64,000 nt of DNA, from contig JAFSQF010000067.1 of NCBI GenBank assembly GCA_017446745.1, positions 15,010 through 79,009 of the forward strand, read 5' to 3'. Of this stretch, positions 41,701-43,690 are shown in pieces. Under the pieces are notes generated by a model, which did not search any database, was not told the DNA's origin, and was given only the letters and a program-made list of their open reading frames with translations. A program made the position numbers and the translations under genes. This DNA is from Bacteroidales bacterium. Lineage in GTDB: Bacteria; Bacteroidota; Bacteroidia; Bacteroidales; P3. Position 1 is the first letter of the stretch. Each line of letters opens with the position of its first letter.

Positions 41701-42540
41701 ATGACGAAATATATTGGGGCGCATGTCAGCGCAAGCGGGGGCGTGGGGAACGCCATATTGAATGCTGAAGCCATAGGGGCCAACGCTTTTGCTTTATTCA
41801 CGCGGAATCAACGCAGCTGGGTCAGCAAGCCATTGGCCCAAGCGGAGATTGAGGGCTTCAAGACACTACTTGTCGAGAGGGGCTTCGAACCCCGTTACGT
41901 GCTTCCTCACGACAGCTATCTTATCAACCTTGGATCGCCCGACGAGGAGACACTTCAGAAAAGCCGTGCGGCATTCCTCGACGAGATGCGCCGCGCCCAA
42001 CAGCTGGGTCTGACAATGCTCAACTTCCACCCAGGCAGTCATTTGAACAAGATTGGCGAAGAAGAATGCCTGGACCAGATAGCAAGAGAGATAAATCTGG
42101 CGCTGAGCATGACCGAGGGAGTCACGGCCGTGATAGAGAACACCGCAGGGCAGGGCACCAACCTGGGATGGAAATTTGAACATATAGCCCGCATTATCCA
42201 GGGTGTTGACGACAAGAGCCGCGTGGGGGTGTGCATCGACACCTGCCATACCATAGCTGCCGGCTACGACATTTCCACCGAGATGGGATACCAGTTCACT
42301 ATGGACGAGTTCGAGCGTGTGGTGGGCTTCAAATATCTGCGAGCCATGCACCTCAACGACAGCAAGAAAGGTGCCGGCAGCCATGTGGACCGCCACGAAG
42401 TGCTGGGCGAAGGCACCGTAGGCAAGGACTTCTTTGTCCGCATGATGCACGACGAGCGTTTCGACAATATTCCCATTATCTTGGAGACCCCCGACCCAAG
42501 CCGATGGGCCGACGAGATAAAATGGCTGCGAAGCCTTTGA
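41701..42540 (+). CDS. nfo: endonuclease IV (deoxyribonuclease IV)
   Basis: 279 aa. [30 protein letters not shown] and HLNDSK metal-ligand motifs. Confidence 0.93.
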
Positions 42541-42577
42541 GGAACATACCATCGTTCAATTATTACGTAATTGTTAA

Positions 42578-42826
42578 ATGATTATCCGCAAAAGGCCCAA
42601 ATTTGAGATCGCGTCTCTTATTCGCTGTATTTGATTTTATTCAGCGGTGCTCATCACCCTTTCAGGGGTCGAGACGCGGGGACTGGCTTGATTTACAGAT
42701 CCCCAGACTGCACCCTGTTTGTCTGGGGTTATTAAGATAATATGCCACGCGCAGAGCTTCTTTGCGCACTCCACTGGAGTTTGCACCCATCTCCGAGGCT
42801 TCTTTGTGGAAAATGCGGATAATCAT
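42578..42826. mobile_element. MITE-like non-autonomous element (13-bp TIRs, 8-bp direct duplication)
   Basis: ATGATTATCCGCA at 42578-42590 and its exact complement TGCGGATAATCAT at 42814-42826. ATTGTTAA lies immediately outside both ends (42570-42577, 42827-42834). No credible ORF inside. Confidence 0.55.
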
Positions 42827-42853
42827 ATTGTTAAAAGTAAAATAAACGTATTT

Positions 42854-43690
42854 ATGTATCATTATTATGTTGTTGATGCCTTTACGGAACGTGCTTTCGG
42901 AGGCAATACGGCAGGGGTAGTACTGCTGGAAGAGAAAGAATTCCCATATGAGACCTGGATGCTGAAGGTGGCAGACGAACTGAGGTATTCGGAGACGGCT
43001 TTCGTGCGGCGGCAGGATGACGGAGTGTGGCACCTGCGCTATTTCACGCCCCGCGCCGAAGTGGAGCTCTGCGGTCATGCTACCATAGCCACTTTTGCAC
43101 TGTTGCATTCCTTGGGTCTGGCTTCGGGGCCATGCCGCGCCCTTACGCTGGCAGGCGAGCTGGAGGTGATAGCAGCACCCAAGGTGATGATGCAGATGGC
43201 AAAGCCTCGGATCATAAGTACCATAGAGGCGACGGCAAGCGTCTATGATGCCGTCGGCATACACGGATATGAACCGGAGCTGCCTGTGCAGGTGGTAAGC
43301 ACCGGCCTGCCCGATATCATGCTGCCGGTGCCATCGGTGGAGGTGTTAAATACCCTCCAACCCAATATGGAGGCTATAGCAGCCTTGACGGCTCATTATG
43401 AAGCTATAAGCATCCATCCTTTTGCTTTGTCGGACGACGGATATACGGCTCATGTGCGCGACTTCGCCCCGAGGTGCGGCGTGCCGGAAGAGAGCGCCAC
43501 GGGGACAGCCAATGCTGCCCTTACCCATTTCCTCGCCGCTCATGCCGTTATAGCGGAGGGGGAGCACAGTTTCCTGCAAGGCGAAGCCATGGGGCGGCCC
43601 TCCACAGTGGCCACACGCCTTGATGCCGACGGCACGGTATGGGTGGGGGGCTCCGCAGCCATCGTGGCAGAAGGGGCATTGTTGGCATAG
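42854..43690 (+). CDS. PhzF family isomerase
   Basis: Start set at MYHYYVVDAFTERAFGGNTAGVVL. Also ELCGHATIA and ESATGTANAAL active-site contexts. Confidence 0.88.
   Translation: MYHYYVVDAFTERAFGGNTAGVVLLEEKEFPYETWMLKVADELRYSETAFVRRQDDGVWHLRYFTPRAEVELCGHATIATFALLHSLGLASGPCRALTLAGELEVIAAPKVMMQMAKPRIISTIEATASVYDAVGIHGYEPELPVQVVSTGLPDIMLPVPSVEVLNTLQPNMEAIAALTAHYEAISIHPFALSDDGYTAHVRDFAPRCGVPEESATGTANAALTHFLAAHAVIAEGEHSFLQGEAMGRPSTVATRLDADGTVWVGGSAAIVAEGALLA

What the first reader, a model, noticed from the sequence alone, without database searches (positions are those of the whole stretch)
42578..42826. 249-bp MITE-like insertion with perfect 13-bp TIRs and 8-bp target duplication
ATGATTATCCGCA (42578-42590) and its exact reverse complement (42814-42826) delimit a 249-bp non-coding segment. 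The octamer ATTGTTAA is directly repeated immediately outside both ends, as expected for a target-site duplication. Inside is a strong hairpin (CCCCAGAC...GTCTGGGG, 42701-42728). The element sits in the promoter region of the PhzF-family gene. No matching transposase is in the window. Each TIR contains a one-mismatch DnaA-box-like 9-mer (TTATCCgCA), which is probably coincidental. Alternatively the 13-bp complementarity could be the closing helix of an unknown structured RNA of about 250 nt. I could not match it to tmRNA, RNase P, SRP or 6S features.
Basis: seen in the sequence. Interest (0 to 1): 0.6.

Follow-up and report, generated by a model that had tools for sequence, protein, structure and literature searches.

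The report
Small hitch-hiking transposon, IS1595 type
The 249-bp segment is a real miniature non-coding transposon (MITE) whose 13-bp ends are the same as those of a large group of IS1595-family insertion sequences in gut and rumen Bacteroidales, so it is an ordinary member of a familiar kind of mobile DNA.

Summary
ATGATTATCCGCA (42578-42590) and its exact reverse complement (42814-42826) bound a 249-bp non-coding segment flanked by ATTGTTAA on both sides.

In eight ruminant-gut metagenome runs, contig depth rises 10-50-fold exactly at 42577/8-42826/7, and the flanks beyond those points differ between contigs. A metagenome scan found 117 stretches with the same two 13-mers 231-261 bp apart, with more than 20 unrelated interiors. 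Of 108 distinct insertions, 59 carry an 8-10 bp flanking direct repeat, against 3.8 expected by chance.

A 1046-bp element with the same ends and a 10-bp flanking repeat encodes an IS1595-family transposase. Four further transposase lineages (58-87% identical) have the same 13-mer upstream of the gene. A 154-bp member of the window's own subfamily is present in some near-identical strains and absent in others.

Rfam gives nothing. No inversion joints were seen. The RNA-gene and DnaA-box readings are not supported. The copy at this site was present in all eight runs, and a relative has nfo next to phzF without it.

Verdict: a new member of a known kind, of low interest. The tools for the window's own genome were closed, so copy number and a resident transposase could not be checked.

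The parts
41701..42540 (+). Upstream neighbour: endonuclease IV-like gene (AP_endonuc_2, 279 aa). It is not part of the element.
   Evidence: ORF. The identical gene in L253/L254 carries PF01261.
42570..42577 (.). Left copy of the 8-bp target-site duplication, ATTGTTAA.
42578..42826 (.). 249-bp non-autonomous element (MITE) with IS1595-type ends.
   Evidence: Depth steps and heterogeneous loose ends fall exactly at these borders in 8 runs. The family was recovered in 117 metagenome stretches.
42578..42590 (+). Left terminal inverted repeat, ATGATTATCCGCA. It matches 15 nt of the transposase-distal end of the L145 IS.
42610..42678 (.). Hairpin with an 8-bp stem (CGCGTCTC/GAGACGCG). Its loop holds an optional ~50-bp module (42619-42668) that many sister copies lack.
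   Evidence: I12. Joints 42618>42669 were seen in all 8 runs. The short form L001 lacks the module.
42701..42728 (.). Hairpin CCCCAGAC-N12-GTCTGGGG, conserved in the short form L001.
   Evidence: I14.
42739..42789 (.). Second optional ~51-bp internal module, absent from the 154-bp form.
   Evidence: Joint 42738>42790 in runs X13 and X18. Alignment to L001.
42814..42826 (-). Right terminal inverted repeat. 16 nt are exact, and 20 of 22 match, against the transposase-proximal end of the L145 IS.
42827..42834 (.). Right copy of the 8-bp target-site duplication, ATTGTTAA.
42854..43690 (+). Downstream neighbour: PhzF-family gene (278 aa). Its start codon is 27 bp from the element. It is not part of the element.
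   Evidence: PF02567; sequence.

Best explanation
The segment is a non-autonomous DNA transposon (MITE) that uses the ends of an IS1595-family insertion sequence. A transposase of that family, with an N-terminal zinc ribbon and a DDE domain, is encoded elsewhere. It would bind the 13-bp ends ATGATTATCCGCA, cut the element out and paste it into A/T-rich intergenic DNA with a staggered cut of about 8 bp. Repair of that cut gives the flanking ATTGTTAA repeat. What is shown: the ends, the duplications, the multicopy spread, the identity of the ends with those of transposase-bearing elements, and presence/absence of a sister copy in near-identical strains. What is inferred: that this transposase is what moves the MITE, and the cut-and-paste chemistry, which is taken from what is known of the IS1595/Merlin family. 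The copy at this site appears fixed in its species. It separates nfo from phzF by 257 extra bases of hairpin-rich DNA, and any effect on phzF expression is untested.
For: 1. Borders. Contig depth rises from about 4-24 to 55-2000 exactly between 42574 and 42845 in 8 DNA runs. Loose ends at 42577/8 and 42826/7 have low-agreement consensus, which means many different flanks.
2. Family. 117 metagenome stretches hold the two exact 13-mers 231-261 bp apart. They give 111 distinct sequences that fall into more than 20 groups with unrelated interiors.
3. Target duplication. 59 of 108 distinct insertions have a flanking direct repeat, mostly 8-9 bp. Shuffled flank pairs give 3.8 on average, with a maximum of 9 in 200 shuffles. 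The base just outside each end is almost always A or T, and the 30+30 nt flanks are 29% G+C against 47% for the loci.
4. Partner. L145 1309-2354 is a 1046-bp element with the same exact ends and the flanking repeat AAAAATAATA. Its 316-aa ORF matches PF12762 (3.6e-23), PF12760 (4.3e-7) and NCBIfam NF033547 'IS1595 family transposase' (2.8e-63).
5. Clade. Transposases 87, 71, 62 and 58% identical to it (P0007, P0014, P0019, P0091) all have the 13-mer 51-116 bp upstream of the start codon. It is exact in three lineages and has one mismatch in the fourth. Where the locus reaches the far end, the 13-mer is there too.
6. End polarity. The window's right end matches the transposase-proximal end of L145 at 20 of 22 nt, and its left end matches the other end over 15 nt.
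7. Mobility of this subfamily. The 154-bp L001 copy is missing from contigs of 4 runs from 4 studies whose flanks differ from L001 at only 0-3 positions.
8. A relative with phzF 70% identical keeps nfo next to phzF with a 73-bp spacer and no element.
9. According to PMC8101967, the IS1595 family is usually flanked by 8-bp duplications and has these two domains.
Against: No transposase of this kind is in the 64-kb window or in 828 kb of MITE-bearing loci. The window's genome could not be searched, so a resident partner is unproven. The L145 IS itself is not in the four sheep/goat runs tested at 80% or higher identity; only a short conserved transposase stretch is. No strict empty site (a single ATTGTTAA) was found for this copy: all 8 runs carry it, and the relative's spacer does not align with the window's. 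About 45% of insertions show no clear duplication, and the border is fuzzy by one base. For L001 the filled allele gains 154+3 bases over the empty one, inside a T run, rather than 154+8. Beyond 13-22 nt at the ends, the window element shares nothing with the IS, so it is not a simple deletion derivative of any IS seen here.
Confidence: 0.9

Rival explanations
1. The segment is a structured non-coding RNA gene of about 250 nt whose closing helix is the 13-bp complementarity.
For: The sequence folds well on paper (-90.8 kcal/mol). Sequences next to the 13-mer differ between subfamilies yet stay complementary. A few low-depth RNA contigs run from nfo into the element.
Against: There is no Rfam match even at E<=10. 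Interiors of elements with the same ends are unrelated in sequence. The same 13-mers bound a transposase gene and cargo genes. Flanking duplications and an empty site show insertion of DNA. The two ends of a transposon co-vary anyway, because one protein binds both. No covariation test was run.
Confidence: 0.02
2. The segment is an invertible DNA switch (inverton) flanked by inverted repeats, which flips a promoter in front of phzF.
For: It has inverted repeats of the right size class, lies just upstream of a gene, and comes from Bacteroidales, where such switches are common (general knowledge).
Against: No strand-changing joints were listed in 8 DNA runs. Direct repeats flank the ends, which inversion does not produce. 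There are hundreds of copies at unrelated sites. No sigma-70-type promoter match was found, and I saw no Bacteroidetes-type TAnnTTTG box by eye.
Confidence: 0.02
3. The segment is a MITE by origin, but this copy is a fixed, immobile relic kept because it now serves the host, for example as a transcription stop or insulator between nfo and phzF, or as a new phzF leader.
For: The copy is present in all 8 runs that hold this species. It carries private substitutions relative to nearly all sister copies (42714, 42755, 42789). The element is hairpin-rich, and terminator-like hairpins are about 5 times commoner at family ends than in shuffles (37 of 222 against 7.35).
Against: Both ends and the duplication are still perfect. 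The hairpin enrichment has no preferred direction (37 outward against 30 inward). RNA data are too thin to show a stop or a start. Fixation is also expected for a neutral old insertion.
Confidence: 0.06

Closest known systems
IS1595-family insertion sequences (Pfam DDE_Tnp_IS1595 + Zn_ribbon_IS1595; relatives of eukaryotic Merlin), including their passenger-carrying forms
   Same: The ends are identical to those of five sampled transposase lineages of this family. The flanking duplications of about 8 bp are those reported for the family (PMC8101967). Relatives with the same ends carry passenger genes.
   Different: The window element has no transposase and no coding capacity that is conserved. 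It shares only 13-22 nt with the IS at each end. I did not assign the ISfinder subgroup. From memory, the end TGATTAT resembles the end consensus of the IS1595 and ISNwi1 groups, but I did not check this.
Bacterial MITEs of Bacteroidales, for example MITE239, MITE464/PgRS, MITE700 and BrickBuilt of Porphyromonas gingivalis (PMC4596501)
   Same: These are also short, non-coding, intergenic and multicopy, with ends shared with full-length IS of the same bacteria.
   Different: Those elements have IS5-family ends (GAGACC..., ACGTCA...) and short or irregular duplications. This one has ATGATTATCCGCA ends and 8-10 bp duplications, and it belongs with IS1595.
Bulk catalogue of prokaryotic MITEs (PMC11602168), which lists 81,380 different MITEs in Bacteroidota
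   Same: The same class of element in the same phylum, also found in phage contigs.
   Different: The catalogue's sequences could not be read here, so I cannot say whether this family is already listed. Neither 13-mer occurs in the text of any searchable paper.

Membership tests
[quoted passage not shown] | Short (about 50-1000 bp) and without a transposase gene | tested here: met
   The element is 249 bp. Its only ORF, 54 codons on the minus strand, starts in the end repeat and is not shared by other subfamilies. tblastn with the transposase was negative.
[quoted passage not shown] | Terminal inverted repeats | tested here: met
   13 of 13 nt are complementary. The 13-mer occurs only at these two places in the window, against 0.12 expected.
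[quoted passage not shown] | Target-site duplication of a characteristic length | tested here: met
   It is 8 bp here. Across the family, 59 of 108 distinct insertions have 8-10 bp repeats, against 3.8 expected.
[quoted passage not shown] | Many copies at unrelated sites | tested here: met
   Shown in metagenomes: depth steps and varied flanks and 117 stretches.
[quoted passage not shown] | Presence/absence polymorphism (an empty site) | tested here: inconclusive
   This copy is filled in all 8 runs. A distant relative lacks it, but its spacer does not align. For the sister copy L001 the feature is met: an empty allele is seen in 4 runs.
IS1595-family derived element | Ends identical to those of elements that encode an IS1595-family transposase | tested here: met
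   L145, L237, L240, L241-246 and L247-252.
IS1595-family derived element | Duplication of about 8 bp | tested here: met
   Lengths cluster at 8 (28 cases) and 9 (20 cases). The family norm is 8 bp (PMC8101967).
IS1595-family derived element | A matching transposase in the same genome | not testable with these tools
There is none in the window.
IS1595-family derived element | The transposase binds and moves the element | not testable with these tools
   This needs a bench assay.
Known structured RNA family (Rfam) | Match to a covariance model | tested here: not met
   The only hits were two chance snoRNA matches at E 3.2 and 7, far below their gathering scores.
Invertible promoter segment (inverton) | Both orientations present in a population | tested here: not met
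   No strand-change joints were listed in 8 DNA runs.

The most novel reading that the evidence does not exclude
The invariant 13-mer may mark one very broad, currently active IS1595 clade of gut and rumen Bacteroidales and their phages. Its transposase would move three kinds of passenger: plain 1-kb IS; transposase-less or transposase-linked cassettes with defence or counter-defence genes (a SAM-lyase-like ORF, an N6 methyltransferase, a SocA/Panacea gene); and hairpin-rich MITEs. In this reading the interchangeable hairpin modules of the MITEs are kept because they act on transcription, and the copy here would uncouple phzF from nfo.
Probability: 0.15. Interest if true: 0.45.

Novelty: new member of a known kind. 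Interest (0 to 1): 0.22.

Why it matters
It matters mainly for annotation. The 54-codon ORF that gene callers place inside the element (as in L253) is spurious. The 13-mer ATGATTATCCGCA is a simple marker for a very common family of mobile elements in ruminant, human and termite gut Bacteroidales. Linking the MITE to IS1595-type transposases gives a testable partner. The same ends also carry cargo genes, so the clade may help spread small defence or anti-defence genes. The insertion itself is a candidate modifier of phzF expression, but nothing here shows an effect.

Tried and rejected
There is therefore no copy count and no transposase search in the window's own genome.
- Rfam at E<=10 gave nothing relevant.
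- My one genome-contig scan went on a 34-nt end probe and gave only L001.
- Searching papers for either 13-mer gave 0 papers.
- Searching earlier findings by sequence gave nothing, and a 13-mer cannot be searched as a word.
- blastn of the window element and of a 258-bp subfamily member against plasmids gave no match.
- I looked for IS-sized pairs of ends among the 118 MITE loci. The pairs enclosed only ordinary genes, not transposases.
- The apparent uniform length of 235-260 bp is an artefact of my search pattern (gap 205-235). Forms of 154, 285, 305, about 380 and 464 bp exist.
- I tested the idea of outward-facing terminators at both ends. Hairpins followed by T runs are enriched over shuffles, but equally in both directions, and the window copy has none.
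- RNA runs gave only a handful of low-depth contigs, with no discrete transcript.
On L145, only a short conserved transposase stretch matched.
- The viral scan with a 14-mer gave mostly chance single hits. Only L144 and L145 were informative.

Full report
**The observation.** The window has ATGATTATCCGCA at 42578-42590 and its exact reverse complement at 42814-42826. ATTGTTAA lies directly outside both ends. With up to one mismatch, the 13-mer occurs nowhere else in the 64 kb, against 0.12 chance matches expected. Two internal hairpins with 8-bp stems are present (I12 and I14). The segment lies between an AP_endonuc_2 (nfo-like) gene that ends at 42540 and a PhzF-family gene that starts at 42854. 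The one nuance is that the repeat can be read as 9 nt if the A at 42578 is shared.

**It is a repeat with sharp borders.** I laid the contigs of eight gut metagenome runs (sheep, goat and unlabelled) on 42200-43200. Summed contig depth was about 4-24 in the flanks next to the element and 55-2000 inside 42574-42845. Many contigs broke off at 42577/8 and 42826/7 into sequences that disagree with each other. That is the signature of a dispersed repeat. In every run, the single-copy flank contigs ran on into the element, so this particular insertion is present in all sampled populations of the species. Sister copies differ from the window copy at 42714, 42755 and 42789. Many of them lack one or both of two internal modules of about 50 bp (42619-42668 and 42739-42789). 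A 154-bp form lacking both modules was found in a sheep-rectum Bacteroidales MAG (L001).

**It belongs to a large family with target duplications.**
- A scan of the metagenome collection for the two exact 13-mers 205-235 nt apart returned 117 stretches. They come from rumen, human gut, termite gut and other samples.
- The 111 distinct sequences fall into more than 20 groups whose interiors do not resemble one another.
- Many are long imperfect palindromes.
- The similar lengths are a consequence of my pattern, not a property of the family. Forms from 154 to about 460 bp were seen.
- Of 108 distinct insertions with enough flank, 59 have a direct repeat abutting the ends, or one base away: 28 of 8 bp, 20 of 9 bp and 6 of 10 bp. 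Randomly re-paired flanks gave 3.8 on average and never more than 9.
- The bases next to the ends are almost always A or T. The flanks are 29% G+C in loci that average 47%.

These are the marks of a DDE-type transposon that makes a staggered cut of about 8 bp in A/T-rich DNA.

**The partner.**
- Pairs of ends at IS-like distances within the MITE loci enclosed only ordinary genes.
- From memory of the ISfinder family table, an 8-bp duplication and an end containing TGATTAT suggested the IS1595 family. Earlier notes of this scan also report IS1595 elements with 8-bp duplications in gut Bacteroidales. I treated both as leads.
- A scan of viral contigs for the 13-mer plus one base gave mostly chance hits but two informative loci.
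- L145 1309-2354 is a 1046-bp element with both 13-mers exact, flanked by AAAAATAATA on both sides. Its 316-aa ORF matches DDE_Tnp_IS1595 (3.6e-23), Zn_ribbon_IS1595 (4.3e-7) and NCBIfam 'IS1595 family transposase' (2.8e-63, cutoff 75 bits, score 213.7).
- This protein has 4100 relatives at E<=1e-20 in the protein collection. The few that carry names are annotated as IS1595 family transposases of Paludibacter and Seramator.
- I fetched the DNA for four lineages at 87, 71, 62 and 58% identity. Each has the 13-mer upstream of the start codon, exact in three lineages and with one mismatch in the fourth. The two simple IS (1010 and 1048 bp) also have it at the far end.
- The 62% and 58% lineages carry passenger genes (an N6 methyltransferase; small ORFs plus a SocA/Panacea gene) and sit at several different left flanks.
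- The window's right end matches the transposase-proximal end of L145 at 20 of 22 positions, and its left end matches the other end over 15. The large 258-bp MITE subfamily matches the end of the 58% lineage at 30 of 32. Different MITE subfamilies therefore pair with different IS lineages of one clade.
- PMC8101967 states that IS1595-family members are usually flanked by 8-bp duplications and carry these two domains.

**Direct evidence of movement.** For the window's own site I found no strict empty allele. A relative with a PhzF protein 70% identical keeps nfo next to phzF, with a 73-bp spacer of short tandem repeats and no element. In silico excision of the window element leaves a 56-bp spacer. 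The two spacers do not align, so this is supportive only. For the 154-bp sister copy in L001 the evidence is direct. In four runs from four studies, a contig with only 0-3 differences over about 540 bp of flank joins position 2242 to 2400 and skips the element. The site is a run of T: nine in the empty allele, six on each side in the filled one. The net gain is therefore 154+3 bases rather than 154+8. I cannot tell whether that reflects a short duplication or later slippage in the homopolymer.

**Rivals.**
- Structured RNA gene: unsupported. Rfam has nothing, the interiors are unrelated, and the same ends bound protein-coding transposons.
- Invertible switch: unsupported. No strand-change joints were seen in eight runs, and direct repeats flank the ends.
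- DnaA box: unnecessary. The 9-mer is part of a transposon end conserved in every element and lineage sampled.
- Domesticated regulatory spacer: cannot be excluded, but has no positive support. The window copy has no terminator-like or sigma-70-like site. The family's excess of hairpins followed by T runs has no preferred direction. RNA contigs are too few to read.

**Limits.** Copy number per genome and a resident transposase are therefore unknown. The L145 IS itself is not in the four sheep/goat runs tested; only a short conserved transposase stretch is. That the IS1595 transposase moves the MITE is an inference from shared ends and duplication length.

**Novelty.** MITEs are well known. Those described in Bacteroidales have IS5-type ends (PMC4596501), and a bulk census lists tens of thousands in the phylum (PMC11602168). 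No searchable paper contains this 13-mer. I rate this a new member of a known kind, of low interest. Its practical value is for annotation, and it points to a widespread IS1595 clade that also carries cargo genes.

Noticed in passing
L144 7877-8853: A 977-bp cassette with the same ends (23-nt inverted repeats) but no transposase. It carries a 286-aa ORF with a borderline match to the S-adenosylmethionine lyase family (PF23780, 27 bits against a cutoff of 28; phrog_30877 2.6e-8). It sits on a 367-kb contig also listed as a viral contig. It may be an anti-restriction passenger.
   Followed up: partly
L144 12723-13473: A second transposase-less cassette (751 bp) with the same left end, a one-mismatch right end and a 200-aa ORF of unknown kind.
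   Followed up: no
L241-L246 and L247-L252: Two lineages of the same IS1595 clade carry passengers directly after the transposase gene: a 746-aa N6_Mtase gene in one, and small ORFs plus a SocA_Panacea gene in the other. Each lineage was found at several different left flanks. The right ends lie beyond the fetched DNA.
   Followed up: partly
window 42565-43498: Contigs in two bovine-gut RNA-labelled runs (X25 and X27) join 42564 to 43499. This is a strain variant lacking 934 bp, namely the MITE plus the first 645 bp of phzF. The left break is 13 bp outside the element, so it is not an obvious transposase-made deletion.
   Followed up: no
L001 2241-2406: The empty allele of the 154-bp sister copy has T9, whereas the filled allele has T6 + element + T6. 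The net gain is 154+3, not 154+8.
   Followed up: partly
L256 1428-1500: The nfo-phzF spacer of a related species is built from a short tandem repeat (GGTTTAAAGTTTAA-like units).
   Followed up: no
L098 597-1549; L044 712-1248: Two or three copies of the element abut one another, head to tail or a few bases apart. This suggests repeated insertion next to existing copies.
   Followed up: no
window 42662-42826 (- strand); L253 1309-1473: A 54-codon ORF starts at the ATG of the right end repeat and is called as a gene in a public assembly. It is not conserved in other subfamilies and is most likely spurious.
   Followed up: partly
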